A DNA stretch of 64,000 bases. Origin: a virus. Lineage: Duplodnaviria; Heunggongvirae; Uroviricota; Caudoviricetes. Location: the IMG/VR virus record IMGVR_UViG_3300012983_000032, positions 29,793 through 93,792 of that record; one strand, 5' to 3'. Numbering within the stretch: position 1 is the stretch's first letter; every line of letters starts with the position of its first letter. Shown piece by piece: positions 30,411 to 57,226 of this stretch. The notes under the pieces were generated by a model. That model worked only from the letters and a program-made list of their open reading frames with translations, was not told the DNA's origin and did not search any database. Made by a program: the position numbers and the translations under genes.

Positions 30411-31160
30411 TTACCCGAAATTTTCAGGATTTTCGTCTGCGTTTTCAATTCTTTTTACTGCAATATCAAAATACTCTTTATCTTTCTCTATTCCAATAAA
30501 ATCTCTATTTAATTTCTTGCAAGCAACTCCAGTAGTTCCTGACCCCATACAGTTATCTAAAACTATATCACCCTCATTAGAAAATGTTTTTATCAACTCC
30601 ATAATTAAAGCTAAAGGTTTTTGTGTGGGATGTAGATTACTTGTTAAAATATCTCTCTTAAATTTCCATAATTGTGTTGGGTACCTTAATCCTTTGTCTA
30701 CATATTCTGTAGGCTTTTTATCAAAATCATCGTCAACCAATTTTCCTAATTTACCATTTTTAATTTTATTAACTCTAGGTGGGCCGTTATAGAGAGTCAT
30801 TTGTGGATTATAAGTACATTGTTTCTTATAAAATAAAGATATTACTTCAATATCTTTACCTGCTCTACGTTTTACTTGAAATATATTAGTAACTCGTTCT
30901 TTCTGCCAATAAATATCATACTTGAAATATTTTAGATTTGAGAGTCTGAGAAAAGAAGAAAAAGGTTCTTGCCCAAATAAAATAATTGGAGTAGTGTCTT
31001 TAATAATTCTATTATACTCTTTCCACAATTCTTCAAAAGGTATAATAATATCCCAAGGGCATTTAGTTGTGCCATACGGCAAATCACATATTATTAAATC
31101 GACTGACTTATCAGGTATCAGTTTCATTGCTTGGAGACAGTCGTCATTATAGAATTCCAT
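30411..31160 (-). CDS. DNA methyltransferase, N6-adenine/N4-cytosine beta class
   Basis: N-terminal IICDLPYG (motif IV), HPTQKP, and C-terminal NCMGSGTTGVA (motif I). Confidence 0.8.
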   Translation of the reverse strand: MEFYNDDCLQAMKLIPDKSVDLIICDLPYGTTKCPWDIIIPFEELWKEYNRIIKDTTPIILFGQEPFSSFLRLSNLKYFKYDIYWQKERVTNIFQVKRRAGKDIEVISLFYKKQCTYNPQMTLYNGPPRVNKIKNGKLGKLVDDDFDKKPTEYVDKGLRYPTQLWKFKRDILTSNLHPTQKPLALIMELIKTFSNEGDIVLDNCMGSGTTGVACKKLNRDFIGIEKDKEYFDIAVKRIENADENPENFG

Positions 31161-34154: not shown

Positions 34155-34253
34155 TTTTTATTTTTTTTGGCTAATTAAGTGAATTTTTTAAAAAGTTCAA
34201 TTATAACATTAATGTAATCTAAAAAGGATATATAATATATATAATTAATTAAT

Positions 34254-35102
34254 ATGGGAAAACATTTTAAGCCATTAAATAAAAGAACTCACTATAAAAA
34301 AGTATGTAGAAGTTGTGGAGAATTATATTCTGACGATTTTGCAGAGACAGAAATATGTCCAAAATGCCATGAGAAATATAAAGGGAAGAAACCTATACCT
34401 TATAAATGTACTTGTGGTCAGATATTTATGGGACAAAGAGCATTTAGGGCACACAGAAGTGAAATGAAAAAAGCTGGAACTTCTTGTCCACCATATGAAA
34501 GACATGAAACTATGACTAATTGTCCTTATTGTGGAAAGGAACTATCAGCGTCTATGGATAAAAGATGGGGCAAGGAAACATTATTTACTCATTATAAAAC
34601 CTGTAATGAAAGAGAGATTGCATTGGCAAAATATGGGAGTTATAAAAAAACTCCTATGGCAATTCAACATAAACAAGAATCTATGCAATCTATAGAATAT
34701 ATAATTAAAATGTTAACTAGCCCTAAAAGGGAAGACCCTGGTGTCTCTGAAACAGCAATGAATACAGCATTAGGTGGTATTGCGGGGCAAAATACCTTGC
34801 AACAGAATATATTTCTATATAGTGTATTTGAAAAATATAACAGACAATATGACTTGAAAGGCTGCCTTTATAGGGCAAGTTCTATTCAAAATGTTATATT
34901 AGAATTACAGTTAGTTTTTAATTTTGATAATCAGTTAAAAGATTATTTTAGAGAAACTTTTGAAAAGGAAAAATGGTTAATTATAGATTTAAATTGGTCT
35001 GATTTTATTTTAAACCCAGAAGAGTCTGAAAAAAAGGTAATACAGGCAATTATTGACCAAGAGAACAAATTAGGAGTGCCATTTAAAATGAGTAATTGTT
35101 AA
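34254..35102 (+). CDS. Multi-zinc-finger protein
   Basis: Repeated CxxC pairs: CRSCG...CPKCH, CTCG, CPPY...CPYCG. Confidence 0.4.
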   Translation: MGKHFKPLNKRTHYKKVCRSCGELYSDDFAETEICPKCHEKYKGKKPIPYKCTCGQIFMGQRAFRAHRSEMKKAGTSCPPYERHETMTNCPYCGKELSASMDKRWGKETLFTHYKTCNEREIALAKYGSYKKTPMAIQHKQESMQSIEYIIKMLTSPKREDPGVSETAMNTALGGIAGQNTLQQNIFLYSVFEKYNRQYDLKGCLYRASSIQNVILELQLVFNFDNQLKDYFRETFEKEKWLIIDLNWSDFILNPEESEKKVIQAIIDQENKLGVPFKMSNC

Positions 35103-35106
35103 TATA
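35098..35106 (+). promoter_or_regulatory. TTGTTAATATATAAT promoter, 30 nt before DNA-polymerase ATG 35136
   Basis: motif plus RBS TGGAGG. Confidence 0.5.
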
Positions 35107-35135
35107 TAATTAATTATTTTGGAGGTAATTAACTA

Positions 35136-37325
35136 ATGGCAATTCAATTTGGTGGAATTACTACCACCACAAAAGCAAAAAGTTTAGCAATTGCTAAAGA
35201 AGACAGAGTTGACGACTATATTCTTTATAACCATTTTAACCCAGAAGAAGACTATTATATTTTCCTCCTAGAGGGTATGCCAAAAAATAGGGCATTAGTT
35301 GATAAGGTAAGAGCTAAAATTGACGAACATGGTTATCAGTCTTATATTATTGCGTCTGCAACTACAAAAGTCTTCGTAAAAGATGATATTAAACAGTTAA
35401 CAGAACATATGAGTACATTTAGGTCAAAATGGACTAATATTATTACATATCAAGGTGTTCACTGTTCTGCAATTATGGCTTTTGGTGCTGCCTTGTATGG
35501 TATTAACCGTAGTGCCGATATTATGGTTAGTGACTTTTATGATATGTGGATGAATAATCCATATTACTACCTTGGTCACGGATTTATTGGGGATTTTGAC
35601 ACATTTATTTACCCAGTCGATAGTGTTGACCAACTTTATCCGTCTGAGGATAATAGACATAGACCTTTTAAACCCGACGAATCAACTACAAACTGGAAAA
35701 CAAGATTCTTTTTTGCACAATTGAAAAATATGCAAATTGGACGTAAATATCCAGAAGATATGACTGACTTTGAGATTGTTGTATGTAAAACATTGGAAGA
35801 GGCAGATTCCACATTAACTAAACTTATGAACTCAAAGTTATTGGCTTGGGATACTGAAACAAACTCATTAAAATGGTTTAGGAAGAATTCACACATTCAC
35901 TGTTTTACATTCTGTAATGACGGTAAAATTGGATATTATATTCCAGCAAAATTAATTTTTGAAAATCGTGGACTACGTAGAAAATTATGTAGTGTAATGT
36001 ACACTTGTGAAAATATGGTTGGTGCCAATATCAAGTTTGATATTCATTTTATTAAACATGATATGCCTGAATTTGATATCAAAAGAATTAAACATATTGA
36101 CGACGTTGGACAGTTAAGTCATGCTATTAATTCAAACCGTACAAAAGGTTTGAAACCTATGACTTTCTTCTATACACCATTTGGCGGATATGAAAACGAA
36201 TTGGACGTATTTAAAAAACAGACAAAAACTGATAATTACTCACTTATTCCAATAAATATCCTTAGTAAATATGCAACTATTGATGCTATTGTTACATTCA
36301 GAATTTACTTGGCACTTAGAAATCACATAGCTTTAGTTGATAAAAAATTCCCTAATGAAAAGCCACTTAAAGACTGGACTATGGAAAGATGGTATGACCA
36401 AGTAATGGCACCTGTTTATCCAGACTTTATCGGTATGGAAGAAGTAGGTATGAGAATGGACGTAGACTATCTGCAGTCTGTTAGAAAACTTTTACTCTAC
36501 CGTATTCCAATTGTTAGAGATAAACTTTGTAATTTATGGAAAGTACCAAAAGACTTCAAGTTCAATTCACCCGATAAGTTAGGTATGCAAATTGAAAAAA
36601 TGGGTTGGCCAAAGGTTGCAGAAAGTAAGAAAGGTCTTTATGCTACTTCTGATGAGTGTATTCAAGAGTGGAAACGTCTTAATATGCCAGGGATTAATGA
36701 CCTTATTGAACTTAGAGAATTATATTCTTTCTTAGGTACTTTTATTGGTCTTGAGTCAGAAACTGGTAACCCTGACGACGCAACAGGTTGGCAACAGTTC
36801 CTTGTCTTCCACCCAGAAGACAACAGTTGGAGAGTTCATCCAAACTATGGTGTAATGGCAACAGAAACTATGCGTTGTATTGGTACAGAACCTAACTTGC
36901 AAAATATCCCTGCACACTCTAAACTTTCAGACGAAGTTAAGAGATGTATAACGGTTCCAACTTCAATTCAGTACACTATTGCAGACGAAAGTGGTAATGT
37001 ATATGTAGGTGGTCATTTGGATACTATCGAGGTTGAGGGCAGAGGTAGAATTTCTTTGGCAGACGTTAGAGAAAATGATAATATAATACCGAATACTTTT
37101 GAAAAGTACAAGTTCAAATATGCAGAAATATTTGAAAAAGATGATGACGAAAATTCTAAAAAAGGTTCTTGGGAAAGTCAGAGAGCAAAGATTTATGGAC
37201 TAAAATCTATAAATGACGCAGTAGTTTCAAAAGATAAATCATTCCTTGACGATTTTAATGGTAATGAGAGTTCAGAAGAAAATGAACCAAAGAAGTTTGG
37301 TTTTGGATTCGGTATTGGAGCGTAA
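35136..37325 (+). CDS. Family-A DNA polymerase, N-terminal portion. It covers the 3'-5' exonuclease domain and the start of the polymerase domain, then stops after the NLQNIP region.
   Basis: ExoI LLAWDTETNSL, ExoII ANIKFDIHF, ExoIII KYATIDAIV. The polymerase fingers motif TEPNLQNIP is present. Motif A is atypical (IADESG) and motifs B and C are absent. A low-complexity tail precedes the stop. Confidence 0.7.
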   Translation: MAIQFGGITTTTKAKSLAIAKEDRVDDYILYNHFNPEEDYYIFLLEGMPKNRALVDKVRAKIDEHGYQSYIIASATTKVFVKDDIKQLTEHMSTFRSKWTNIITYQGVHCSAIMAFGAALYGINRSADIMVSDFYDMWMNNPYYYLGHGFIGDFDTFIYPVDSVDQLYPSEDNRHRPFKPDESTTNWKTRFFFAQLKNMQIGRKYPEDMTDFEIVVCKTLEEADSTLTKLMNSKLLAWDTETNSLKWFRKNSHIHCFTFCNDGKIGYYIPAKLIFENRGLRRKLCSVMYTCENMVGANIKFDIHFIKHDMPEFDIKRIKHIDDVGQLSHAINSNRTKGLKPMTFFYTPFGGYENELDVFKKQTKTDNYSLIPINILSKYATIDAIVTFRIYLALRNHIALVDKKFPNEKPLKDWTMERWYDQVMAPVYPDFIGMEEVGMRMDVDYLQSVRKLLLYRIPIVRDKLCNLWKVPKDFKFNSPDKLGMQIEKMGWPKVAESKKGLYATSDECIQEWKRLNMPGINDLIELRELYSFLGTFIGLESETGNPDDATGWQQFLVFHPEDNSWRVHPNYGVMATETMRCIGTEPNLQNIPAHSKLSDEVKRCITVPTSIQYTIADESGNVYVGGHLDTIEVEGRGRISLADVRENDNIIPNTFEKYKFKYAEIFEKDDDENSKKGSWESQRAKIYGLKSINDAVVSKDKSFLDDFNGNESSEENEPKKFGFGFGIGA

Positions 37326-37339
37326 ATTAACTGTTTTTT

Positions 37340-37348
37340 GTTAATATA
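37340..37348 (+). promoter_or_regulatory. TTGTTAATATATAG promoter directly after the truncated polymerase ORF
   Basis: motif; drives the small ORFs at 37407-38023. Confidence 0.45.
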
Positions 37349-37406
37349 TAGTCGCCCCTAAGATATTTAATATCTTAAATCTATGGGCATAAGGAGGTAA
37401 TATAAA

Positions 37407-37496
37407 TGGCGTGTCGTATATCAAAAGAATATAAACTGTCTCAAGGTAAAGAAGAATACCTTATGTTAACAGCAGATTTCGGCTCGTTACAATGAC
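37407..37496 (+). CDS. Possible 29-aa ORF behind a strong promoter and RBS
   Basis: TTGTTAATATATAG box at 37338-37351, RBS AAGGAGG, then ATG. Sequence MACRISKEYKLSQGKEEYLMLTADFGSLQ. Confidence 0.2.
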
Positions 37497-37780
37497 AAAT
37501 GCGTCTTACTACACAAGACACAACTCTTAATAAGAGTACTCATGGTAACTGTGACCCAGGTCTTTATGAAATCTACTCTGAAGAATCAGTTTGTCCCGAC
37601 GCCCATTCGTAGATAAGTCTGCGACTGGTAAAAATACTTTCGTTGCTTCTATTAACGGGCAAGTATATGACTTGGAACTTGAAGACGGTTCTTCTGTAAA
37701 GTTATATCAGGAAATGTATGCAAAAATTAAACGTAATGGTACAGAAATGACTGTTAAAGTTTTGGACTTAAAAGAGGGGG

Positions 37781-38023
37781 ATGACTTTATTGAGCCAATC
37801 TACAACTTCTAAAGGAGTATTAGTCATTGACGGTAGAAATCTTTCCAAAGAAGAACTATATATTCATTGTGACAAAAGTAACACATTTGAAATAAGTACT
37901 CCGTCAAAAATATATATTGATGGTATGACATTTTCTTCTATGGAAGAATTTTTTAAATATATTAAAGACTTGAGGGAAGAAAATAAAAGACTACGGAAAA
38001 GATTAGGTCTTAAAGTTAAATAA
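37781..38023 (+). CDS. Hypothetical small protein
   Basis: 80-aa ORF that overlaps a second small ORF (37582-37812) in another frame. Confidence 0.25.
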   Translation: MTLLSQSTTSKGVLVIDGRNLSKEELYIHCDKSNTFEISTPSKIYIDGMTFSSMEEFFKYIKDLREENKRLRKRLGLKVK

Positions 38024-38120
38024 TGAATACTCTGCCGAATCTTGAGTTCGGCAGATTTCCACTCTTTCAATGGTACATAATTTTTCAAATTAATTACAGT
38101 ATTCACATTCCTAATTAAAT

Positions 38121-39113
38121 ATGCTAACAATTATCTCCTTATTTTGCGATAAGGATTATCAATACATACCTTCACTACTTAATAACTTTAATGAAAAAGT
38201 TAAATGTGATAGTGAGTTTATTTTAGTAGATAATCGTGAAGAAAATAAAAATATATCTATCCCAGAAATAGGTATATTTTTTAATACCCATAAAGGTAAA
38301 GTCTTAACCAAGGGTAAGAATCTAGGGATTCTACTTGCAAAAAAATTTGCAGTTGAAAATGCTAATGGGAAATATGTTTGGTTTATAGACGACGATGACT
38401 GGATATATGAAACTATAAGCCCTTTATTATTATCAGAATGTAAAGGAGACCTTATAGCATTTAATTTATGGTATGCCGAGGGGCATTTAAAAAGACTTTA
38501 TCGTGGTAATCATGTTCTAAATAAACGTTTTATTGTAGATAAAAATATTTTTAAAAATAAAAATTATTTAAACACTATCCTACCTACTACCTGGAACAAA
38601 TGGTATAAACGAAGTATTATAAAAGATATATATTCTCAAATAAAAGAAGATATATGGATAACTTGTAATGAAGACTTTTTCTTAAATTTAAATACATTAA
38701 ATACTATAAATTCAGTTCAAGAAATACCATTGAATATTTATGTAAATGACGCTTCTAGGGCTATTTCTAATGGGGAAATTAGAAATATAAATAATTTTCA
38801 TTTACTTCTTAAAGGGTATAATGATTCCTTAAAACTTCTTAATAGTTGTAATTTACCGTCCTCATTATATAATGCTTCCGAAAAAATAGAGTATGATATA
38901 AAGTTTTATTTAGGAAGAGTAACTATGTCAGACCCCACTTTATGGGATAGTGAGTTAGATACTTTAATTAACGTATTCCCTAATAATATATTACAGAAAG
39001 TTGCAGAATATTTGACAGTTGATTTCTTTATTGAGAAAGGAATAAAAATTAATCCTAATAATTTTCCTATGGTTAGAATATTACTTTTTAAGAGACTCTG
39101 TCTAAAAAAATAA
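38121..39113 (+). CDS. Family-2 glycosyltransferase; paralog of 17426..18454
   Basis: ISLFCDKDYQYIPSLLNNF...FILVDNREENKN, and DXD motif YVWFIDDDDWI. Confidence 0.5.
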   Translation: MLTIISLFCDKDYQYIPSLLNNFNEKVKCDSEFILVDNREENKNISIPEIGIFFNTHKGKVLTKGKNLGILLAKKFAVENANGKYVWFIDDDDWIYETISPLLLSECKGDLIAFNLWYAEGHLKRLYRGNHVLNKRFIVDKNIFKNKNYLNTILPTTWNKWYKRSIIKDIYSQIKEDIWITCNEDFFLNLNTLNTINSVQEIPLNIYVNDASRAISNGEIRNINNFHLLLKGYNDSLKLLNSCNLPSSLYNASEKIEYDIKFYLGRVTMSDPTLWDSELDTLINVFPNNILQKVAEYLTVDFFIEKGIKINPNNFPMVRILLFKRLCLKK

Positions 39114-39143
39114 CCCCTACTTTTCCGTAGGGGTTTAATATTT
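39104..39143. terminator. Bidirectional terminator between convergent genes
   Basis: cccctacttttccgtagggg flanked by A-runs and T-runs. Confidence 0.6.
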
Positions 39144-39144
39144 A

Positions 39145-40941
39145 TTAACCTGTAGCCAAAACTTTAATCAAGTCTTCAATGAATTTACCTCTAACCTTAC
39201 TTTCTATAATTGGACGATTAGTAGGTACAGTTGGGTCAATTCCTTCTTTAGCCCAAAGTTTATTTACTCTGATAAGGAACTTGTTAGTAATAACATTTAA
39301 TAGACGGAAGTCTAAGTGTGCCTTAATATTTACTGCCCAGTTCTTATATTTTGTAGTCCCTAAAAGAAGAATCTTGAATAATGCAAATGCCTCATATTTA
39401 CACCACTCAATAACTTCGGCAGCATTAGAAGATTCAATACCAATTTTCATATCATCTAAAATCTGTTCTGCACGGCAGAGATATTCCAACATAGTTAATC
39501 TTAATTCAGATTTTTCACATCTTGAAAGAACTGCTTGGTCTACTTCTGAAAGTGCAAGGTTTGTTACGAATATAATAGAAGAGTCAAACTCCCATTTATT
39601 TTGAATAACGTACTCTACTGCCTCTCCGTCAGTCATAGGGATATCTTCCTGCATATCACTTCTTTCAAATCCTTTACTTATTTCATTTTCAAGGTCATCG
39701 GCTCGCTGATTAAGAATCTGTGCTTCACGGATTGCCTGGATATTTCCATACTCACCAAATCTATTTATAAGTTTTCTAGGTTTATTTGTTTCATTAAGTT
39801 TATTATAACCAAATGCTTTACCAAGTTCTACGGCTTCTTCAAAAGAAACATTAAAATCAAAGTTTTCACCATTTGCAGTAACACTACAAATACCCTCAGC
39901 AAGTCTATCTGTATTTACTTCAATTATACTTTCTTTCTTCTTATCACTAAATTCTTTTTTCAAAGAGTTATTTGCATTATCCAAAATAGTTGGTGAAACA
40001 CTGATAGGTAATTGTGGTCCAACAAGTGCTTTAAGGAAGTTCTGAATATCCTTATTTGTACTAACAACGAATCCATCACAGTCGTCAAGAAGAATAAGTT
40101 TATTATGACGATTCTTGTAAAAGAATAAAAGTAATGGAGTAAATGAAGAACCAATAGAACCTGACTCTTTAACTACTGTTGGTAATATTGTATGTCTTCT
40201 ATTTGGAGTCCATACTTCTTGACCGTCTTGAATTGCCCTATTTACAGTTGTTGTTTTACCACATCCTGCCTCTCCACAAATAATTGCATGTCTATTTACA
40301 GACTTTTCACAAGCAATAACATATACGGCGTCATATACTTCCTCATATTTATCTGATACTGACTCTTCAACGGATTTTGTTCTGTTATTAATATTATTCA
40401 TTACAGTAAAGATTTCAGACTCAATTTTATCAGAAGATTGTTCTGCGTTAAAGTCAGGGCGGCTATCAGCAGTTAAAACTTCACCTGTTTTTTCATCACG
40501 CTTTTCACCAGTTAAGGCATAAACGTTTTTACCATATGCACCCTCTTTATATAATTTAATCTCTTCTGTATATGTAGGGCGAGAAATATTTACAGAGTCA
40601 TTATATCCTCTATTATTAAAGTCATCATAACTTCTTATTTCAGGGTTATCTTTTGTGTCAATTAAATATCTGGTAATTGCTTGTCTAGTACCTTTTGCCT
40701 CTAAAAGTTTATAAAGTCCTGTAATAGCTTCTTTACTTTCATACATATCCTCTATTTTAGTTTTAATTAAACTAGGGTCTTCGTGAAACTGCAAAAAAGG
40801 TGGTAAAGTAGACTGGTCTACTTTTTTAATAGTATCTGCAAGAGTAGCAGTGGATTCCTGTGTATCTGTTTCAGGATTTTCTACTATTTCTTCCGAAATA
40901 GGTGCCTGAATTTCTGTATTTTCTAATTCTTCATTTTCCAT
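39145..40941 (-). CDS. P-loop NTPase, AAA-like
   Basis: Walker A GEAGCGKTT, Walker B LILLDDCDG. Acidic N-terminal region. Confidence 0.5.
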   Translation of the reverse strand: MENEELENTEIQAPISEEIVENPETDTQESTATLADTIKKVDQSTLPPFLQFHEDPSLIKTKIEDMYESKEAITGLYKLLEAKGTRQAITRYLIDTKDNPEIRSYDDFNNRGYNDSVNISRPTYTEEIKLYKEGAYGKNVYALTGEKRDEKTGEVLTADSRPDFNAEQSSDKIESEIFTVMNNINNRTKSVEESVSDKYEEVYDAVYVIACEKSVNRHAIICGEAGCGKTTTVNRAIQDGQEVWTPNRRHTILPTVVKESGSIGSSFTPLLLFFYKNRHNKLILLDDCDGFVVSTNKDIQNFLKALVGPQLPISVSPTILDNANNSLKKEFSDKKKESIIEVNTDRLAEGICSVTANGENFDFNVSFEEAVELGKAFGYNKLNETNKPRKLINRFGEYGNIQAIREAQILNQRADDLENEISKGFERSDMQEDIPMTDGEAVEYVIQNKWEFDSSIIFVTNLALSEVDQAVLSRCEKSELRLTMLEYLCRAEQILDDMKIGIESSNAAEVIEWCKYEAFALFKILLLGTTKYKNWAVNIKAHLDFRLLNVITNKFLIRVNKLWAKEGIDPTVPTNRPIIESKVRGKFIEDLIKVLATG

Positions 40942-40981
40942 AATAAATTAGTGGATTAATGGTTAATTTATAGATTCATTT

Positions 40982-40990
40982 GTTAATATA
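40982..40990 (+). promoter_or_regulatory. TTGTTAATATA promoter, 19 nt before ATG 41009
   Basis: motif plus RBS TGGAGGA. Confidence 0.5.
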
Positions 40991-41008
40991 TTTGTATGAG
41001 TATTTTAA

Positions 41009-49851: not shown

Positions 49852-50223
49852 ATGTTTCCTACTGACTTTGACTTGAGGGGGTTAAGTTCACCTATTAAGG
49901 TAACTCCTCGTGAAAAAGATTGGGTTGCTGCACCAGACCATTATGCACAATTAAAAGAAAAACTTGGGGGTAAGGAGTGTTGGGACGTATATACACTTCT
50001 TTTGAGACATAAACCAAGAATCCCAGGATTTCTTGCAACATTTTGGCAAAACTGTTTCAAGTACCTTTGGCGTCTTGGAGACAAACCAGGTGACTACGGT
50101 AAAACTGACGAAGAAAAGATGTGTGAAGACATGTGTAAAGTAATGGAATATGCTGCAAAATTTATTATTGAGGCTGGTGGTAAAATTCCTGACTTCTCAC
50201 ATATTCAATACACAGGAGAATAA
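49852..50223 (+). CDS. Hypothetical protein
   Basis: RBS TTGGAGG. 97-nt 5' UTR containing a hairpin. Confidence 0.35.
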   Translation: MFPTDFDLRGLSSPIKVTPREKDWVAAPDHYAQLKEKLGGKECWDVYTLLLRHKPRIPGFLATFWQNCFKYLWRLGDKPGDYGKTDEEKMCEDMCKVMEYAAKFIIEAGGKIPDFSHIQYTGE

Positions 50224-50224
50224 T

Positions 50225-51532
50225 ATGGGGAAACATCCTTTTTTACCATTATATAACTTTATAAAAAAACATCCATTTACTTGGAAAAAGAAACTCAAGG
50301 AAAATCCATATTGTATTACAATTAAGAGTCCAAATTATAACAAAGATTGGTATATGTTCTCATATAGTCAGTTCGACTCGGACTTTTATAATGACGTAGT
50401 AAAATGCTGTCGTGGGACAGTTTTGGAAGTTAAAGGAAAACTTTTCAAACGTATCAAACCAATTTGTTTACCATTCAAAAAGTTTGGTAATTACGGTGAA
50501 GGGTATTGTGACCCTATTGACATAGAAAGTGCTACTATTCGTGATAAAGTTGACGGCATTCTTGTAAAGTGTTCTGTAATTGACGGAAAAACATATTGGT
50601 TTACAAATAACGGTTTTGACTGGACTATGAAGTTTGGTACAGATTTTTCTTTTGATGACGGTGAAGAAGCAACTAAACTTGCTGAAAACTTTGGTGATTT
50701 ATTAGAATATGCGTTATACCGTAAACTGGATATCCCAAGATTTACAGTTGTCGGTAAGTATAAAGATATTACCAAATCACTTAACCGTATTTACAATATG
50801 GAAAATTCTTGGTTATCTAAAATCCCAAATAACTATACTCTTGGCTTTGAGTTAGTTTCACCTAGAAATAGAATCATTTGCAAATATCCTGAAACAAAAA
50901 TTGTTTTATTGTTTGCAAGAGATAATATTACAGGTCAGGAATTTACACCAGAAGAAATGGTATCCCAATATGGTATCCCATATGAAACACCAAAATTATA
51001 TGACTGTAAAACACTTAAAGACACTCAGGAAATGTTAAAGTCTTTCAAAGGTCTTGAACAAGAAGGTGTAGTAGTTTGTGATAAATATTTTCATCGTGTA
51101 AAAATGAAGTGTGAGTCATACTTACAGTTAAAGTATGCTGTAGATAATGACAAACCTAAAATAATCTTTAAGGCAGTTGTAGAAGAGTCCACTGACGACT
51201 TACTTACTGCATTTCCTACTTTAAAAGACTCTGTAGATAAAATGACAGAAGATATAAAAAACTTTAAGGAATCCTACAAAAAGTTCTACGAGTTTTTGCA
51301 GCTTAAAGGTGTTGAGGACAAAAAGATATTTGCATTATATGTAAATGCAAATATAAATGACCCTTTAAAAAAGTTGGCTTTTAATGCAAGCAGTCAAACC
51401 GCAGAACAAATTGTGGATAAGTTCATTACGGAATGTGCAATGAAAAGTTCTAAGGGGTATAGAGAATATTTTAATGTTAAAGCATTATTAGATAATGGAG
51501 AATATTTACATAATAGAACAATAAAAAACTAA
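50225..51532 (+). CDS. ATP-dependent RNA ligase, Rnl1/Rnl2-like nucleotidyltransferase
   Basis: Motif I IRDKVDGILVK (KxDG), motif IV EQEGVVVCDK, motif V RVKMK. The ATG at 50225 has RBS AGGAG; the track start at 50150 is rejected. Confidence 0.55.
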   Translation: MGKHPFLPLYNFIKKHPFTWKKKLKENPYCITIKSPNYNKDWYMFSYSQFDSDFYNDVVKCCRGTVLEVKGKLFKRIKPICLPFKKFGNYGEGYCDPIDIESATIRDKVDGILVKCSVIDGKTYWFTNNGFDWTMKFGTDFSFDDGEEATKLAENFGDLLEYALYRKLDIPRFTVVGKYKDITKSLNRIYNMENSWLSKIPNNYTLGFELVSPRNRIICKYPETKIVLLFARDNITGQEFTPEEMVSQYGIPYETPKLYDCKTLKDTQEMLKSFKGLEQEGVVVCDKYFHRVKMKCESYLQLKYAVDNDKPKIIFKAVVEESTDDLLTAFPTLKDSVDKMTEDIKNFKESYKKFYEFLQLKGVEDKKIFALYVNANINDPLKKLAFNASSQTAEQIVDKFITECAMKSSKGYREYFNVKALLDNGEYLHNRTIKN

Positions 51533-54067: not shown

Positions 54068-54847
54068 ATGTTTGCAGATAATCTTGGTGACAGAATGAAA
54101 ATGCACTATGAAAATCTTACAAAGACTAAACTTATTCAGGAAGTACCAGTAATTATAAGACTTGACGGTAAAGCATTTCATACCTTTACACGTAAATTTG
54201 AAAAGCCTTTTGACAGTATTCTTGTAAAGACAATGCAGGAAACTACAAAATACTTGTGTGAAAATATTCAGAACTGTATCTTTGGGTATACTCAATCTGA
54301 CGAAATTTCTTTGGTCTTGACTAAACCTCTTATTAGTTCGGAAGTTTGGTTTGACTATGAAGTACAGAAACTTTGCAGTGTTTCTGCGTCTATGGCTACT
54401 TTGGCATTTATGCAGAACTTTAAAAAGAATATTAACGAAAGATACGTTGTAGACCCTCTTTCAGATGTTTACCGTACTGCATTAGATAAAGGGGCAATGT
54501 TTGACGCAAGATGTTTTAATATCCCAGAGTGTGAAGTTGTAAACTGTATTTATTGGAGACAGATTGACGCAAAACGTAATTCGGTACAAATGTTGGCAAG
54601 GTCTCTTTACTCTCATAAAGAGCTTGACAAAAAGAATACTGCTATGTTACTCGAAATGTGTAATCAAAAAGGTAAAGATTGGGAGAAACTTTCTAATCAC
54701 CTTAAATGGGGTTCTGCAGTAAAATACAACCTAGAAACTCATAAAGTTGAAATTGATGAAAATATGCCACTTCTTAAAGGAGAAGACAGAAAGTATCTTG
54801 AAGACTTTATTGTAATGAACCAAGACCCTTCACCACATTTCCACTAA
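54068..54847 (+). CDS. Thg1-like protein (tRNA-His guanylyltransferase family, 3'-5' nucleotidyl addition)
   Basis: VIIRLDGKAFHTFTRKF (RxDGxxFHxF) and FGYTQSDEISLVL (SDE catalytic motif). 259 aa, typical TLP size. Confidence 0.7.
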   Translation: MFADNLGDRMKMHYENLTKTKLIQEVPVIIRLDGKAFHTFTRKFEKPFDSILVKTMQETTKYLCENIQNCIFGYTQSDEISLVLTKPLISSEVWFDYEVQKLCSVSASMATLAFMQNFKKNINERYVVDPLSDVYRTALDKGAMFDARCFNIPECEVVNCIYWRQIDAKRNSVQMLARSLYSHKELDKKNTAMLLEMCNQKGKDWEKLSNHLKWGSAVKYNLETHKVEIDENMPLLKGEDRKYLEDFIVMNQDPSPHFH

Positions 54848-55134: not shown

Positions 55135-55647
55135 ATGAAATTTATATTTAGTGTAGGATGTTCTGGAAGTGGAAAATCTACATATTATTATAAAAACCTT
55201 AAAGACACATTTGAAATTGTAGAACCTGACTTAATCCGAAAAGAAATGGGTGATATCAATGACCAATCAAGAAATGGTGAAGTATATATGACTGCACACA
55301 AACGTCTTGACAAATATCTTAGTGAGGGTAAAAACGTTTATTTTTCAGCAACAAATCTTAACATTAAATCAATTAAAGATATAGGAGACATTGCAAAAAA
55401 ATATACAGACGATATTACTTGTATACAATTTAATGACTCATATGTATGGGAACTCTGTCAAGATAGAGTTAAAAAAGACCTGAGTAATGGAGTAGATAGG
55501 TCAAATACTGATGTTATGAAAGAACTTCCAACAGGTGAAAAAATACCTCTTGTTAAAGAGATGTCTGATAGATTTACCAAATTGGTTAACAGCCAAGAGT
55601 TTTCCGACCTTATTGAAGAGCAGGGTATTAAATTAATGGAGGTATAA
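55135..55647 (+). CDS. Polynucleotide 5'-kinase, T4 Pnk kinase-domain-like, with no phosphatase domain
   Basis: VGCSGSGKST P-loop, EPDLIRKEM, SATNLN; compare T4 Pnk GCPGSGKST and SDTNLN. Confidence 0.65.
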   Translation: MKFIFSVGCSGSGKSTYYYKNLKDTFEIVEPDLIRKEMGDINDQSRNGEVYMTAHKRLDKYLSEGKNVYFSATNLNIKSIKDIGDIAKKYTDDITCIQFNDSYVWELCQDRVKKDLSNGVDRSNTDVMKELPTGEKIPLVKEMSDRFTKLVNSQEFSDLIEEQGIKLMEV

Positions 55648-56126: not shown

Positions 56127-56164
56127 TTAAATACATTATAAATTATTTGATAGGTGATAGAATT

Positions 56165-57226
56165 ATGTCTATAACATTTAATCCTGAAAAATATCATATT
56201 ACTAAACCAGTAAGGCTTATTGAATTGTTTGCTGGTATTGGAAGTCAATCTAAGGCATTAGATAAACTTGGAGTAAATTACGTTCCGTGGAAAGTTTGTG
56301 AGTTCGACAAATATGCAGTTGCCTCTTATAATGCAGTGCACGGCACAAATTTTGAAACTTCTGACGTTTCTAAAATTACAGGTGCAGACCTAGAAATTGT
56401 AGACACTGATAAGTATGAATATATTATGACATACTCGTTTCCTTGCGTAGACCTTTCCTTGGCTGGTAAAAGAGCAGGTATGGATAAAAACAGTGGCACT
56501 CGTTCTTCCCTTCTTTGGCAAGTAGGGCGTCTTTTGACAGAAACCAAAGAACTTCCACAGGTACTTGTTATGGAAAATGTTCCACAGGTTCATAGTGCAT
56601 CTAATATGAGTGCATTTCAAGATTGGTGCAAGTTTTTGCAGGATAAAGGATATTCTTCTTATTACAAAGACCTCAATGCAGTGGACTACGGTATTCCTCA
56701 GAGACGTATGAGATGTATTATGGTTTCTATCCTTGGGGATTATATATACAAGTTTCCTAAACCTTTAGAAAAATCTGTAAAACTCGATGACTTCCTTGAT
56801 AAGATTCCTGACCCTAAGTTCTACATTGATAATAAAAAATCTAAAGAGCTTATCAATAATATTCTTGCAGATAAAATTAAATTACATAATGGTGCAAATG
56901 GTGTTATTGTAAAAGGGATGAGTGGTGAAAAATATCGTGCAGAATGTAAACCTACTGATATCTCAAGTACACTTTGTGCAAGAGATTGGAAAGGTTTCAA
57001 TAACTACGGTCAAACAGGTATTGTTGAAATGAACGGTGACACCCCAACTGCCGATAACCTGAAAATTCGTAGGCTCTCTACTGTTGAGTCTTGGAAACTT
57101 ATGGGCTTTACTGAGGAAGACCTTAGAAAAGCAGAAAAAGTAAACAGTAACACTCAATTACTAAAACAAGCTGGAAACTCAATTGTAGTTGACGTTTTAG
57201 TTAATGTATTCAAAGAATTATTTTAA
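56165..57226 (+). CDS. DNA (cytosine-5) methyltransferase
   Basis: Motif I LFAGIGS, motif IV SFPCVDLSLAG, motif VI ENV. The ATG at 56165 has RBS AGGTGA; the track TTG start at 56147 is less likely. Confidence 0.85.
   Translation: MSITFNPEKYHITKPVRLIELFAGIGSQSKALDKLGVNYVPWKVCEFDKYAVASYNAVHGTNFETSDVSKITGADLEIVDTDKYEYIMTYSFPCVDLSLAGKRAGMDKNSGTRSSLLWQVGRLLTETKELPQVLVMENVPQVHSASNMSAFQDWCKFLQDKGYSSYYKDLNAVDYGIPQRRMRCIMVSILGDYIYKFPKPLEKSVKLDDFLDKIPDPKFYIDNKKSKELINNILADKIKLHNGANGVIVKGMSGEKYRAECKPTDISSTLCARDWKGFNNYGQTGIVEMNGDTPTADNLKIRRLSTVESWKLMGFTEEDLRKAEKVNSNTQLLKQAGNSIVVDVLVNVFKELF

What the first reader, a model, noticed from the sequence alone, without database searches (positions are those of the whole stretch)
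35136..38120. Family-A DNA polymerase ORF that stops just after NLQNIP, followed by a promoter and small ORFs; motifs B and C are absent from the window
The ORF contains an unassigned N-terminal domain, a complete 3'-5' exonuclease (Exo I, II, III) and the start of the polymerase fingers, up to TEPNLQNIP. It then shows an atypical stretch where motif A should be (IADESGNVYVGGHLDTIEVEG) and ends in a low-complexity tail. The remaining polymerase motifs (RRxAKxxNFG, HDE) are not found anywhere in this 64-kb window.

Immediately downstream are a strong promoter box, a 29-aa ORF and two overlapping small ORFs with locally elevated GC, and then the truncated GT2 paralog. Possible explanations are a split polymerase whose catalytic half is encoded elsewhere, an interrupting intron, intein or homing-endonuclease remnant, a decayed polymerase retained for its exonuclease, or an assembly artefact.
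Basis: partly seen in the sequence, partly recalled or inferred. Interest (0 to 1): 0.65.

Follow-up and report, generated by a model that had tools for sequence, protein, structure and literature searches.

The report
Three-piece phage DNA polymerase gene
The "truncated" DNA polymerase is the first of three separately encoded pieces of a working polymerase from a huge uncultured gut phage. The second piece lies right behind it and carries two tiny stop-containing inserts that ribosomes must somehow get past.

Summary
The ORF at 35136-37325 is real, and its Pfam DNA_pol_A match does stop before motif A. It is not decayed or misassembled. About 64 metagenomic protein clusters share the same truncated architecture, on contigs up to 442 kb.

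The polymerase is a fractured gene in three pieces:
- **Piece 2:** a 129-codon gene carrying motif A.
- **Piece 3:** about 300 aa carrying motifs B and C.

Both break points lie inside homologous, degenerate mini-Hint (intein-fold) modules. In relatives, HNH/NUMOD1 and GIY-YIG homing-endonuclease genes sit in the gaps.

Piece 2 is in the window at 37406-37812. Piece 3 is not in the window.

Piece 2 is interrupted by a 6-nt insert (CAA TGA CAA ATG) and an 11-nt insert (TCG TAG ATAAG TCT GCG). Removing them restores the exact protein found in relatives that are 98-99% identical. I found 16 such inserts at five positions, and 15 of them start with an in-frame stop. At least 14 other assemblies carry an insert at the second position. 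Insert-bearing alleles remain under strong purifying selection (dN/dS 0.02-0.15 at dS about 1).

The inserts must be overcome during translation, either by short ribosomal hops or by termination-reinitiation. Sequence data alone cannot decide which.

The parts
35136..35780 (+). PolA-N, N-terminal UDG-fold domain (aa 1 to about 215)
35781..36329 (+). PolA-N, 3'-5' exonuclease domain (Exo I DTET, Exo II NIKFD, Exo III YATIDA)
   Evidence: Pfam DNA_pol_A_exo1, aa 216-398, E 2.1e-13.
36468..36962 (+). PolA-N, N-terminal part of the polymerase domain, ending ...TEPNLQNIPAHSKLSDEVKRCITVPT (equivalent to E. coli ..NLQNIP..IRQAFIAP)
   Evidence: Pfam DNA_pol_A profile positions 3-155 of 381. PDB Pol I sequences align to aa about 416-618. 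Family alignment.
36966..37121 (+). Module 1, N-part (aa about 611-662, IQYTIADESGNVYVGGHLDTIEVEGRGRISLADVRENDNIIPNTFEKYKFKY): a degenerate mini-Hint-like beta module at break point 1
   Evidence: Conserved in the truncated family members. hhalign against module 2 gives probability 88%, E 3.4e-6. In P0047 it is an in-frame insertion just before motif A. No Pfam hit.
37122..37325 (+). Lineage-specific acidic, low-complexity tail of PolA-N, plus the TAA stop
   Evidence: Length and sequence vary among homologues, and many end right after the module.
37391..37398 (+). Shine-Dalgarno AAGGAGGT, 7 nt upstream of the piece-2 ATG
   Evidence: Read directly from the sequence. The same AAGGAGGT box is present in the window's close relatives and in L014/L015; more distant relatives (L003, L004) have variant boxes.
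37406..37492 (+). Piece 2, segment 1 (29 codons: MACRISKEYKLSQGKEEYLMLTADFGSLQ). It holds the last strand of module 1 and the motif A strand with the catalytic Asp.
   Evidence: Intact 129-aa homologues are P0075 (98% identical) and L016 (99%).
37493..37498 (+). Insert 1 (TGACAA): an in-frame TGA flanked by CAA codons at 37490-37492 and 37496-37498, followed by ATG at 37499
   Evidence: Absent from L003, L004, L006 and L016. Present in L001, L008, L012, L013 and L117-119. Length variants of 4-13 nt occur at the same position in other lineages.
37499..37609 (+). Piece 2, segment 2 (37 codons: MRLTTQDTTLNKSTHGNCDPGLYEIYSEESVCPDAHS)
   Evidence: dN/dS is 0.02-0.07 against diverged alleles.
37610..37620 (+). 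Insert 2 (TAGATAAGTCT): a TAG directly after Ser codon TCG (37607-37609) and a second Ser codon TCT (37618-37620) directly before the resuming GCG. It shifts the reading frame.
   Evidence: Absent from L003, L004 and L016. Variants: TAGAAAAATCT (L006-L013), TAGGTAAGTCT (L117-119), TAGGTCA (L014/15).
37603..37628 (+). Predicted RNA hairpin formed by insert 2 and its flanks (CCA.UCGUAGA-UAAG-UCUGCGA.UGG)
   Evidence: RNAfold gives -11.8 kcal/mol. Only 4% of insert shuffles fold as well (0% for variant m). The three 11-nt variants differ only in the loop or by an A:U to G:U change.
37621..37812 (+). Piece 2, segment 3 (63 codons plus TAA: ATGKNTFVASINGQVYDLELEDGSSVKLYQEMYAKIKRNGTEMTVKVLDLKEGDDFIEPIYNF). 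It holds the end of the DxHxxT(A/G)xxxF helix and the N-part of module 2 (break point 2).
37781..38023 (+). Conserved small ORF (80 aa) that overlaps the 3' end of piece 2 in another frame. Function is unknown and membership in the system is uncertain.
   Evidence: Present in L001, L004, L016 and L117-119, absent from L006. Pfam gives only sub-threshold hits.

Best explanation
**What it is.** The ORF is the first subunit (PolA-N) of a naturally fractured family-A DNA polymerase. It belongs to a widespread clade of uncultured, very large phages from animal gut and rumen metagenomes. The enzyme is encoded as three genes:
1. PolA-N: UDG-fold domain, proofreading exonuclease and the polymerase domain up to just before motif A.
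2. A 129-codon gene with motif A and the following helix. In the window it sits 80 nt downstream, at 37406-37812.
3. A gene of about 300 codons with motifs B and C, lying outside this window.

**How the pieces probably assemble.** Each break lies near the C-terminal end of a small inserted beta-module with an intein (Hint) fold. The upstream piece ends with most of the module, and the downstream piece begins with its last strand. These modules lack the intein nucleophiles and are about half the size of a mini-intein. The pieces therefore most likely reassemble non-covalently by strand complementation, without protein splicing. This step is inferred.

**How it arose.** The arrangement fits homing-endonuclease invasion of intein-bearing sites. 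Relatives still carry HNH/NUMOD1 and GIY-YIG endonuclease genes in both gaps. In the window lineage the first gap has lost its endonuclease gene and the third piece has moved away.

**The two inserts.** In the window the middle gene carries two tiny stop-first inserts, 6 nt and 11 nt. These are not lethal lesions. They are old, polymorphic and recurrent, and the gene stays under strong purifying selection, so all three segments must be translated.

The most likely route, by a narrow margin, is short-range hopping. The peptidyl-tRNA takes off at CAA (or TCG) with a stop codon in the A site and lands on the matching CAA (or TCT). This restores exactly the protein of insert-free relatives. Termination followed by re-initiation, giving three peptides, is almost as likely.

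The inserts may be scars that protect conserved target sequences from homing endonucleases, as proposed for the 50-nt gap of T4 gene 60. This is also inferred.

**Shown:** the three-piece architecture, the homology of the two modules, the Hint fold of module 2, the endonuclease genes in relatives, the insert polymorphism and the selection signal.

**Inferred:** non-covalent assembly, the decoding route and the immunity role.
For: **Family and architecture**
- 64 related protein clusters of 468-797 aa end like this ORF. One further relative, P0065 (840 aa), is a continuous full-length polymerase, and the remaining nine hits are P0066 and ordinary bacterial Pol I.
- The cluster at >=90% identity to this ORF has 123 members, on contigs up to 442 kb.
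- An intact middle gene follows PolA-N directly in L003, L004 and L016.
- The third piece, with RQVSKTINFAVLFG and MVHDSED, lies 2.7 kb downstream in L014 and L032. 34 clusters hold stand-alone third pieces (about 292-346 aa) or fused piece 2+3 forms.
- Fused forms (P0116 for pieces 2+3, P0047 for pieces 1+2) show that the modules are in-frame insertions.

**Modules and endonucleases**
- Module 1 against module 2 by hhalign: probability 88%, E 3e-6.
- NUMOD1 (E 2.4e-7) and SegE-type GIY-YIG genes sit in the gaps of L032 and L014.

**Inserts**
- 16 variants at 5 positions, 15 beginning with an in-frame stop. Lengths run from 4 to 13 nt and cover all three frames.
- Excising them restores an intact 129-aa ORF in every allele processed except L019, whose extra site-2' insert the script did not remove.
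- dN/dS is 0.02-0.15 with dS about 1 between insert-bearing alleles.
- No other frame-breaking indel occurs in the 34168-41000 neighbourhood in comparisons with close relatives.
- Matched take-off and landing codons occur in 9 of 16 variants.
- Insert-dependent hairpins occur in the longer variants.
Against: - The third piece of this particular genome was not seen, because the window ends first.
- No expression or protein data exist.
- Non-covalent assembly through a half-size Hint module has no direct precedent that I found.
- Matched codons could be target-site-duplication-like by-products of how the inserts arose.
- Hairpins could be fold-back repair scars rather than recoding signals.
- Five site-1 variants (c-f, as listed in the full report, four of them 8 nt long) have no matching landing codon and look like plain stop/restart junctions before the native ATG.
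Two in series would give very little full-length protein.
- Recombination between insert-bearing and intact alleles could inflate the apparent post-insertion purifying selection. The window and L001 are mosaic: dS is 0.02 in segments 1-2 but 0.66 in segment 3.
Confidence: 0.8

Rival explanations
1. Hopping sub-model. Each insert is skipped by the ribosome. The peptidyl-tRNA leaves CAA (37490) or TCG (37607) while a stop codon occupies the A site, then re-pairs with the matching CAA (37496) or TCT (37618). Decoding resumes at ATG or GCG, giving a single native 129-aa protein.
For: - Matched or synonymous codons flank the insert in 9 of 16 variants: CAA/CAA three times, ACT/ACT, TCG/TCT three times, TCG/TCA and CGG/CGT.
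- In 15 of 16 variants a stop codon directly follows the take-off codon. The exception has the codons CGG CCC instead, which I expect to be rare in a genome of about 31% G+C (codon usage not measured). This is the pattern reported for gene-60-type bypass cassettes (abstract of bioRxiv 10.1101/2022.08.31.505936).
- L009 has a 7-nt site-1 insert that keeps CAA..CAA although it breaks the frame.
- Site-2 inserts of 11 nt and 7 nt both keep Ser-TAG-...-Ser.
- Hairpin-forming variants differ only in the loop or by G:U-compatible changes.
- At site 2 the break falls in the middle of the conserved DxHxxT(A/G)xxxF helix, and any restart would add 6-10 junk residues.
Against: - Variants c-f, i, k and o have no matching landing codon.
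- Short stop-hops are known only from synthetic constructs. The 2016 review states that no natural in-frame stop-hop is known (PMC5009743). Their low efficiency is from my own knowledge.
- Flanking repeats may come from the insertion mechanism itself.
- In the site-2 hairpin both the take-off and the landing codon lie inside the stem, unlike in gene 60.
Confidence: 0.4
2. Further-fission sub-model. The inserts simply cut the middle gene into three translationally coupled cistrons of 29, 37 and about 73 aa. The ribosome terminates at TGA or TAG and restarts at the native ATG (37499) and at TTG (37591). The polymerase would then be assembled from five polypeptides.
For: - All eight site-1 variants place a stop 1-10 nt before the invariant native ATG of 'MRL'. 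Their lengths of 4, 6, 7, 8 and 13 nt ignore the reading frame.
- In L014, L032 and L019 the 8-nt insert creates an ATGA stop/start overlap that is in frame with the downstream segment.
- L017 has GTG directly after its TAG.
- Gene callers annotated the 73-aa, 84-aa and 100-aa products.
- A start codon exists 11-34 nt upstream of the stop, in the correct frame, for variants h, k, l, m and n.
- This clade splits the gene freely elsewhere: the UDG domain is a separate gene in L032, with junction TAG ATA ATG.
Against: - Variants i and o have no usable restart codon.
- The site-2 restart would be at a TTG 19 nt upstream of the stop, with no Shine-Dalgarno sequence, and would add 10 unrelated residues in the middle of a helix.
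- Peptides of 29 and 37 aa carrying the catalytic Asp would have to dock stably.
- This model gives no reason for the duplicated codon that precedes the resume point in 9 of 16 variants.
Confidence: 0.35
3. Pseudogene or decay. The middle gene is dead in this genome. PolA-N survives only as an exonuclease, or the whole polymerase is dispensable.
For: - There are two stop or frameshift lesions within 129 codons.
- No motif B/C gene lies in the window.
- L031 (variant o) and L023/24 (variant i) are hard to decode by either a hop or a restart.
Against: - Insert-bearing alleles occur in at least 14 other assemblies and differ by dS about 1, yet keep dN/dS at 0.02-0.15 in every segment. No further lesion was seen.
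- Fifteen of 16 inserts begin with an in-frame stop, against about 5% expected for random insertions.
- The catalytic residues are intact.
Confidence: 0.08
4. Active trans-splicing split inteins ligate the three pieces into one polypeptide, as in classical fractured genes.
For: - The module has a Hint fold.
- Homing-endonuclease genes sit between the pieces in relatives.
- A canonical intein (CFIEGTKI...TPNHFF) is present in motif B of the distant relative P0066.
Against: - Each module totals about 60-75 aa, against about 125 aa or more for known mini-inteins (the size figure is from my own knowledge).
- There is no conserved Cys, Ser or Ala at the N-junction, and no TxxH block.
- The C-part ends ..S(H/T)H(N/D/S) but is followed by Met or Pro, not Cys, Ser or Thr.
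- Fused forms keep the module in frame.
- Pfam intein and Hint models do not match.
Confidence: 0.05
5. Sequencing or assembly artefact. An in-frame continuation of the polymerase was lost to errors.
For: None beyond the unusual appearance of the locus.
Against: - The stop of PolA-N and both inserts are reproduced base for base in independent ENA, Logan and JGI assemblies.
- No frame downstream continues the polymerase.
Confidence: 0.01

Closest known systems
Fractured genes (Dassa, London, Stoddard, Schueler-Furman and Pietrokovski 2009, NAR; PMC2677866)
   Same: A DNA-replication enzyme gene is broken at an intein-type module, with free-standing GIY-YIG/NUMOD homing-endonuclease genes between the parts (seen here in relatives L032 and L014). 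Their model also predicts later loss of the endonuclease gene and genomic uncoupling of the parts, which matches the window's state.
   Different: - Here there are two breaks in one family-A polymerase.
- The Hint modules are about half size and lack splicing residues.
- The split lies just before the module's last strand, leaving a C-part of about 10 aa.
- Fused, non-spliced forms exist in relatives.
- No family-A polymerase case was seen in the passages of that paper read here.
Split gp43 family-B DNA polymerases of T4-like Aeromonas phages (Petrov and Karam, cited in PMC2677866) and the Aes123 PolB1 split intein (PDB 9hth)
   Same: A phage replicative polymerase is encoded by two genes separated by a region containing a homing endonuclease. 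The parts reconstitute the enzyme.
   Different: Those are family B, not family A. They have one break rather than two. The Aes123 case has a genuine split intein.
Phage T4 gene 60 translational bypass with the MobA cassette (PMC5009743; bioRxiv 10.1101/2022.08.31.505936)
   Same: - A replication-related gene is split by a homing endonuclease.
- The downstream part carries a non-coding insert that starts with a stop codon and is flanked by matched codons.
- The insert is proposed to protect against the endonuclease.
   Different: - The inserts here are 4-13 nt, not 50 nt.
- No nascent-peptide signal or gap Shine-Dalgarno sequence is known here.
- There are several positions and many variants.
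- Bypass is not demonstrated here.
Synthetic 'stop-hops' in E. coli (Weiss et al. 1987, as reviewed in PMC5009743) and the 'byp' inserts of Magnusiomyces capitatus mitochondria
   Same: Site 1 (CAA TGA CAA) is literally the stop-hop design: matched codons flank a stop, so that 9 nt specify one amino acid. The byps are likewise many short inserts corrected at translation.
   Different: Stop-hops are known only from engineered constructs; the review states that no natural in-frame case is known. The byps are 27-55 nt and mitochondrial (the length is from my own knowledge).
Phage family-A polymerases with an N-terminal UDG-like domain (for example the phiLo polymerase, PDB 9qhs; T5/SPO1-like PolA as the nearest sequence relatives in GenBank phages)
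   Same: The order UDG-fold domain, then 3'-5' exonuclease, then family-A polymerase. The best GenBank phage hits are SPO1-like and T5-like PolA at about 24% identity.
   Different: Those enzymes are single polypeptides with motifs A, B and C contiguous.

Membership tests
Family-A DNA polymerase (Pfam PF00476 with PF01612) | 3'-5' exonuclease motifs Exo I, II and III | tested here: met
   PF01612 at aa 216-398, E 2e-13. DTET, NIKFD and YATIDA are present.
Family-A DNA polymerase (Pfam PF00476 with PF01612) | Motif A (DxSxxExR-type strand and helix with the catalytic Asp) | tested here: met
   Not in the 729-aa ORF, but encoded at 37475-37507 as DFGSLQ[insert]MRL in the downstream gene. The Asp is invariant in the family.
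Family-A DNA polymerase (Pfam PF00476 with PF01612) | Motif B (RxxxKxxNFxxxY/F) and motif C (HD[E/S]) | tested here: not met
   Absent from the window. Present in the separate third piece of relatives (L014 3383-4270, L032 13086-13979, P0100-P0132).
Fractured gene (split intein plus free-standing homing endonuclease) | Host gene broken into collinear parts at an intein-type (Hint-fold) module | tested here: met
   The fold was tested on a fused relative's module, not on the window's own sequence.
Fractured gene (split intein plus free-standing homing endonuclease) | Free-standing homing-endonuclease gene between the parts | tested here: not met
   None between 37326 and 37405 or elsewhere near the gene in the window. 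Present in relatives L032 and L014 (NUMOD1 E 2.4e-7; SegE GIY-YIG 25.7 bits against a cut-off of 25).
Fractured gene (split intein plus free-standing homing endonuclease) | Splicing-competent intein: Cys/Ser1, block B TxxH, terminal (H)N, and a +1 Cys/Ser/Thr | tested here: not met
   No conserved nucleophile at either junction, no TxxH, the +1 residue is Met or Pro, and the module is only about 60-75 aa. No Pfam intein or Hint hit.
Gene-60-type programmed translational bypass | Matched take-off and landing codons, with a stop or hungry codon directly after the take-off codon | tested here: met
   CAA-TGA-CAA (37490-37498). TCG-TAG-N5-TCT (37607-37620).
Gene-60-type programmed translational bypass | 50-nt gap with take-off stem-loop, gap Shine-Dalgarno sequence and nascent-peptide signal; homology to the MobA cassette | tested here: not met
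   The gaps are 6 and 11 nt. A hairpin exists at site 2 only, with different geometry. There is no mobA-like gene in the window.
Gene-60-type programmed translational bypass | A single polypeptide produced from the discontinuous ORFs | not testable with these tools
   Needs expression, mass spectrometry or ribosome profiling.
Termination-reinitiation (translational coupling) | A start codon within a few nt of the upstream stop, in the downstream frame | tested here: inconclusive
   Met at site 1 (TGA CAA ATG). At site 2 the only candidate is TTG at 37591, 19 nt upstream of the TAG, with no Shine-Dalgarno sequence.
Uracil-DNA glycosylase superfamily (family 4/UdgX-like fold) | UDG alpha/beta fold | tested here: met
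Uracil-DNA glycosylase superfamily (family 4/UdgX-like fold) | Catalytic motifs (GE[A/G]PG, HPS) and the Fe-S cysteines of family 4 | not tested
   Eye inspection only ('LLEGMPKN' lies where GEAPG might be). No alignment to family 4 was made.
Group I or group II intron interrupting the gene | Match to an intron covariance model | tested here: not met
   Rfam gathering scan of the whole window, and an E <= 1 scan of 37200-38200, both gave 0 hits.

The most novel reading that the evidence does not exclude
The 6-nt and 11-nt stop-first inserts, and their 14 relatives at five positions in this gene, are natural short-range translational hop sites. They would include the first natural 'stop-hop' (CAA UGA CAA). 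On this reading they are maintained in wild phage populations as 'savior indels' that destroy homing-endonuclease target sequences in the most conserved codons of a polymerase without changing the protein. Nearly isogenic intact and insert-bearing alleles co-circulate (98-99% protein identity), which would provide a ready-made natural mutant series for studying bypass.
Probability: 0.35. Interest if true: 0.9.

Novelty: new variant of a known kind. Interest (0 to 1): 0.72.

Why it matters
1. It shows that a replicative family-A polymerase can be built from three (in some relatives four, possibly five) separately encoded chains. The cuts fall right next to the catalytic motif A strand and inside the fingers. 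The chains appear to be held together by half-size, splicing-dead intein remnants. This extends the "fractured gene" pathway to an end state in which the intein has become a docking module, and it suggests very small split-Hint tags for protein engineering.

2. It explains a widespread class of "truncated PolA" and orphan small-ORF annotations in very large gut and rumen phages. The 123-member cluster alone includes one sequence seen on 103 contigs.

3. The stop-first mini-inserts are a population-scale natural experiment on how ribosomes cope with interrupted genes. If they are hops, they fill the gap between synthetic stop-hops and the lone 50-nt gene-60 case. They would also support the idea that bypass elements evolve as immunity against homing endonucleases. 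If they are restarts, they show gene fission happening codon-exactly at native Met codons.

Tried and rejected
- **Intron:** no Rfam hit in the window at gathering thresholds, and none at E <= 1 in 37200-38200.
- **tRNAs or suppressors:** no tRNA genes in the window.
- **Alternative genetic code:** treating TAG or TGA as sense barely lengthens ORFs. TAA, TAG and TGA all terminate long ORFs, 39, 15 and 11 times respectively.
- **Motif B/C in the window:** not found by tblastn, by a PolA C-terminus HMM, or by a real third piece. The best HMM hit, ORF 15091-15966, is not a polymerase.
- **My own first reading was wrong:** I initially took 'IADESG' as motif A, from a BLAST extension against P0065/P0066. 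The family alignment and the fused forms show it is the start of module 1.
- **Active intein:** rejected on size and on missing catalytic residues.
- **Pfam on the modules, the tail and the 80-aa ORF:** nothing significant.
- **Close relatives in reference collections:** none in GenBank phages, IMG/VR or species-representative bacterial genomes, where only ordinary Pol I at 21-29% identity turned up. No host could be named.
- **L035 (P0107) and L036 (P0095):** these looked like further interrupted alleles but are contig-end or chimeric truncations.
- **Promoter claim:** the sigma-70 scan lists no site in the 37326-37405 intergenic stretch and finds no more sites in the region than in shuffles.
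- **Hairpins at short inserts:** no insert-specific structure was found for the 4-8-nt variants.
- **Restart-codon bias upstream of site 2:** uninformative, because three of the four possible NTG codons are start codons anyway.

Full report
**1. The observation**

ORF 35136-37325 (+, 729 aa) is real. Pfam finds the 3'-5' exonuclease domain at aa 216-398. It also finds DNA_pol_A, but only profile positions 3-155 of 381, at aa 445-614. Solved Pol I structures align only to about aa 606-618.

Motifs B and C are absent from the window. This holds for tblastn with ten PolA C-termini, for an HMM of those C-termini against all 902 stop-to-stop ORFs, and for tblastn with a genuine third piece from a relative. 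There is no tRNA gene and no Rfam family in the window, and nothing at E <= 1 in 37200-38200. The window uses the standard genetic code. The description is therefore confirmed.

**2. It is a family trait, not an accident**

A search of 5.8 billion proteins returned 74 clusters. Sixty-four of them, 468-797 aa long, have the same truncated architecture. One further relative, P0065 (840 aa), is a continuous full-length polymerase, and the remaining nine are P0066 and ordinary bacterial Pol I.

The cluster at >=90% identity to this ORF has 123 member sequences. One of them was seen on 103 contigs, and the longest contigs are 200-442 kb. Sources include pig-gut metagenomes and other host-associated samples. 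No close relative exists in GenBank phages, IMG/VR or species-representative bacterial genomes. The nearest named polymerases are SPO1-like and T5-like, at about 24% identity.

**3. Where the rest of the polymerase is**

In the family, the sequence after ...KRCITVPT (equivalent to E. coli IRQAFIAP) is not motif A. It is a conserved beta-rich module of about 50 aa, (Y)TIESDDGNVYEGGELDTVEVEGRGRISLAEVTExDxIIPGSF.KY, after which the protein ends.

In the 70%-identical relative L003, the next gene encodes MGCKIQKEYSLAQGKEECLMLTADFGSLQMRLTTQDT...PDAHSATGKNTF...IYNF. That is motif A plus the following DxHxxT(A/G)xxxF helix, followed by a second module of the same kind.

The window encodes the same protein at 37406-37812, behind a strong Shine-Dalgarno sequence (AAGGAGGT, 37391-37398).

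The third piece carries motif B (RQVSKTINFAVLFG) and motif C (MVHDSED). I found it 2.7 kb further downstream in L014 and L032. Thirty-four clusters hold either stand-alone third pieces of about 292-346 aa or fused piece 2+3 forms of about 390-465 aa.

Two relatives show the modules as in-frame insertions: P0116 (428 aa, pieces 2+3 fused) and P0047 (pieces 1+2 fused). One module sits just before the motif A strand. The other sits in the fingers, between the DAHSxTG helix and motif B.

In split forms, the downstream piece begins with the module's last strand: MACRISKEY... in piece 2 and MKIKSISTHN... in piece 3.

**4. What the modules are**

Profile-profile comparison shows the two modules are homologous (hhalign probability 88%, E 3.4e-6). 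Pfam sees nothing in them.

The modules are only about 60-75 aa. They have no conserved N-terminal Cys or Ser and no TxxH block. The residue after the ..SHN-like end is Met or Pro. I therefore read them as splicing-dead intein remnants that now act as docking modules by strand complementation. This is an inference.

A canonical intein (CFIEGTKI...TPNHFF) does sit in motif B of the distant relative P0066, so inteins do invade this polymerase lineage.

In the 245-kb contig L032 the gene order is:
- UDG-domain gene (198 aa)
- PolA-N (542 aa)
- HNH/NUMOD1 endonuclease-like gene (NUMOD1 E 2.4e-7)
- piece 2
- four small genes
- SegE-type GIY-YIG gene, on the opposite strand
- piece 3

 This is the 'fractured gene' arrangement of Dassa et al. 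2009 (PMC2677866), occurring twice in one gene. The window shows the later stages that their model predicts: the endonuclease gene is lost from gap 1, and piece 3 is uncoupled from the locus.

**5. The N-terminal domain**

**6. The unexpected part: two mini-inserts in piece 2**

Compared with L003, L004 and L016, the window has two inserts:
- Six extra bases, read as tta CAA TGA CAA atg (37490-37501).
- Eleven extra bases, read as cat TCG TAG ATA AG TCT gcg (37607-37623).

L016 has the same gene order as the window, including the GT2 gene, and its piece-2 protein is 99% identical.

Deleting the inserts restores the exact 129-aa protein. P0075, an intact allele, is 98% identical.

The inserts are not errors. 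Both are present in L001, L008, L012, L013 and L117-119. Insert 2 alone is present in L006, L007, L010 and L011. These are all independent samples. No other frame-breaking indel occurs in the surrounding 34168-41000 region in these comparisons.

Across about 35 loci I catalogued 16 variants at five positions.

| Position | Variant | Inserted bases (or context) | Length (nt) |
|---|---|---|---|
| After ..DFGSLQ | a | TGACAA | 6 |
| After ..DFGSLQ | b | TGACCAA | 7 |
| After ..DFGSLQ | c | TGACCCTT | 8 |
| After ..DFGSLQ | d | TGACGCTT | 8 |
| After ..DFGSLQ | e | TAGCTCTT | 8 |
| After ..DFGSLQ | f | TAAA | 4 |
| After ..DFGSLQ | g | TAGGTGGCCCCAA | 13 |
| Within MRLT | h | CG[GCCCG]T | 5 |
| Within MRLT | i | CTT[TGAGCCC] | 7 |
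| Within MRLT | j | ACT[TAGGTGAGGACT] | 12 |
| After ..PCPD | k | TAAGGGC | 7 |
| After ..DAHS | l | TAGATAAGTCT | 11 |
| After ..DAHS | l' | TAGGTAAGTCT | 11 |
| After ..DAHS | m | TAGAAAAATCT | 11 |
| After ..DAHS | n | TAGGTCA | 7 |
| After ..DAHS | o | TAGAGTGCT | 9 |

Variant c was counted twice in the restart survey (L014 and L032), which is why eight site-1 entries appear there.

Fifteen of the 16 begin with an in-frame stop, against about 5% expected by chance. All three frames are represented.

Nei-Gojobori estimates between insert-bearing alleles give dN/dS of 0.02-0.15 at dS of about 0.6-1.6, in the segments both before and after the inserts. A dead gene is therefore very unlikely. 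One caveat is that the alleles are recombination mosaics: between the window and L001, dS is 0.02 in segments 1-2 but 0.66 in segment 3.

**7. How the inserts are decoded: unresolved between two routes**

*For hopping:*
- Nine of 16 variants have the codon before the insert repeated, or replaced by a synonymous codon of the same box, directly before the resume codon. The pairs are CAA/CAA three times, ACT/ACT, TCG/TCT three times, TCG/TCA and CGG/CGT.
- The 7-nt variant b keeps CAA..CAA even though it breaks the frame.
- The stop sits directly after the take-off codon, as in gene-60-type cassettes. Site 1 in the window is literally the synthetic 'stop-hop' design, for which the 2016 review says no natural case is known (PMC5009743).
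- The longer inserts form insert-dependent hairpins: g, j, l, m and o gain 2.5-8.4 kcal/mol over the insert-free sequence. The three 11-nt variants differ only in the loop or by an A:U to G:U change.
- At site 2 a restart would cut a conserved helix and add 6-10 unrelated residues.

*For termination-reinitiation:*
- Every site-1 variant puts a stop 1-10 nt before the invariant native ATG, whatever the frame.
- The 8-nt variants lack a matching landing codon. In three lineages they create an in-frame ATGA overlap.
- Variant j has GTG directly after its TAG.
- Start codons exist 11-34 nt upstream of the stop for h, k, l, m and n.
- The clade also splits off the UDG domain with a TAG ATA ATG junction.

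*Neither route covers variants i and o.* Variant i (CUU UGA G) carries the CUU UGA shift site that I recall from prfB, which would give a +1 frameshift. Variant o is in frame and has no restart codon.

My estimate is hopping about 0.40, restart about 0.35, a dead gene about 0.08, and the remainder for other or mixed routes.

The matched codons and hairpins might instead be by-products of how the inserts arose, for example fold-back repair of endonuclease cuts. Because homing-endonuclease genes flank this gene in relatives, and the inserts hit its most conserved codons, I suggest they are endonuclease-immunity scars. This parallels the proposal for the gene-60 gap. It is an inference.

**8. Verdict**

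The finding is real. The 'split polymerase' reading is right but incomplete. The window holds two of the three pieces, and the 'small ORFs' are the motif-A piece.

As a fractured polymerase, this is a new variant of a known kind: a first family-A case as far as my searches went, with a double break and half-size dead Hint modules. The stop-first mini-inserts are the most interesting element and can be tested directly by experiment.

Noticed in passing
window 13913-14773 (-): A complete flagellin gene in a phage genome (Flagellin_N E 2.5e-38, Flagellin_C E 4.8e-22). This is unusual cargo and might hint at a flagellated host or at immune or motility mimicry.
   Followed up: no
window 12250-13614 (-): A TnpB / IS605 OrfB-type gene (Cas12f1-like_TNB, OrfB_IS605 and HTH_OrfB_IS605 domains) next to the flagellin gene. 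It may be a mobile insertion in the phage genome.
   Followed up: no
window 50150-51532, 54068-54847, 55135-55647 (+): A possible RNA/tRNA repair cluster: an RNA ligase (phrog_562), a Thg1-like 3'-5' nucleotidyltransferase (PF04446, E 3e-33) and an AAA_33 kinase-like protein. The relative L032 also carries a T4 Rnl1-type RNA ligase.
   Followed up: no
window 38121-39113 (+) and 17426-18454 (-): Two GT2 glycosyltransferase paralogues. The one next to the polymerase locus is an indel polymorphism. It is present in L016, absent from L001 and L006, and absent from L004, which has a 133-aa gene in the gap instead.
   Followed up: partly
window 37781-38023 (+): A conserved 80-aa ORF overlaps the last 32 nt of piece 2 in another frame. 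It ends in a Lys/Arg-rich helix. It is present in most close relatives but absent from L006. Function is unknown.
   Followed up: partly
window 30411-31160 (-) and 56147-57226 (+): An N6/N4 DNA methyltransferase and a C5 cytosine DNA methyltransferase. Together with the UDG-fold domain on the polymerase, these may point to modified DNA.
   Followed up: no
L023 3555-3575 and L024 (JGI Ga0326511 / Ga0326512): In these relatives the motif-A gene carries a 7-nt insert that reads CGT CTT TGA GCC C. CUU UGA is, from my recollection, the shift site of the prfB +1 programmed frameshift. There is no restart codon and no matching landing codon nearby.
   Followed up: partly
L031 650-670 (Logan SRR29277932): An in-frame 9-nt insert, TCC TAG AGT GCT, forms a strong hairpin with the preceding codons (-19.7 kcal/mol). 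The database protein (P0090) has Gln at the TAG, and the tool flagged that the locus does not translate to it. The source's gene caller may therefore have used a TAG=Gln code for that contig.
   Followed up: partly
P0066 (769 aa, JGI, contig 3877 nt): A distant relative with contiguous motif A carries a canonical intein start (K|CFIEGTKI...TPNHFF) inside motif B. Either the contig ends there or the intein is split.
   Followed up: no
L032 6711-8939: In the 540-aa-type relatives the UDG-fold domain is a separate 198-aa gene (junction GCT TAG ATA ATG). The polymerase subunit gains an unrelated N-terminal extension of about 80 aa. The enzyme is thus in four pieces there.
   Followed up: partly
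window 37335-37347, also L001, L003, L014: A short motif, TGTTAATAT, is conserved in the gap upstream of piece 2 across diverged relatives. It may be a phage-specific promoter or regulatory element. It does not match the sigma-70 consensus scan.
   Followed up: no
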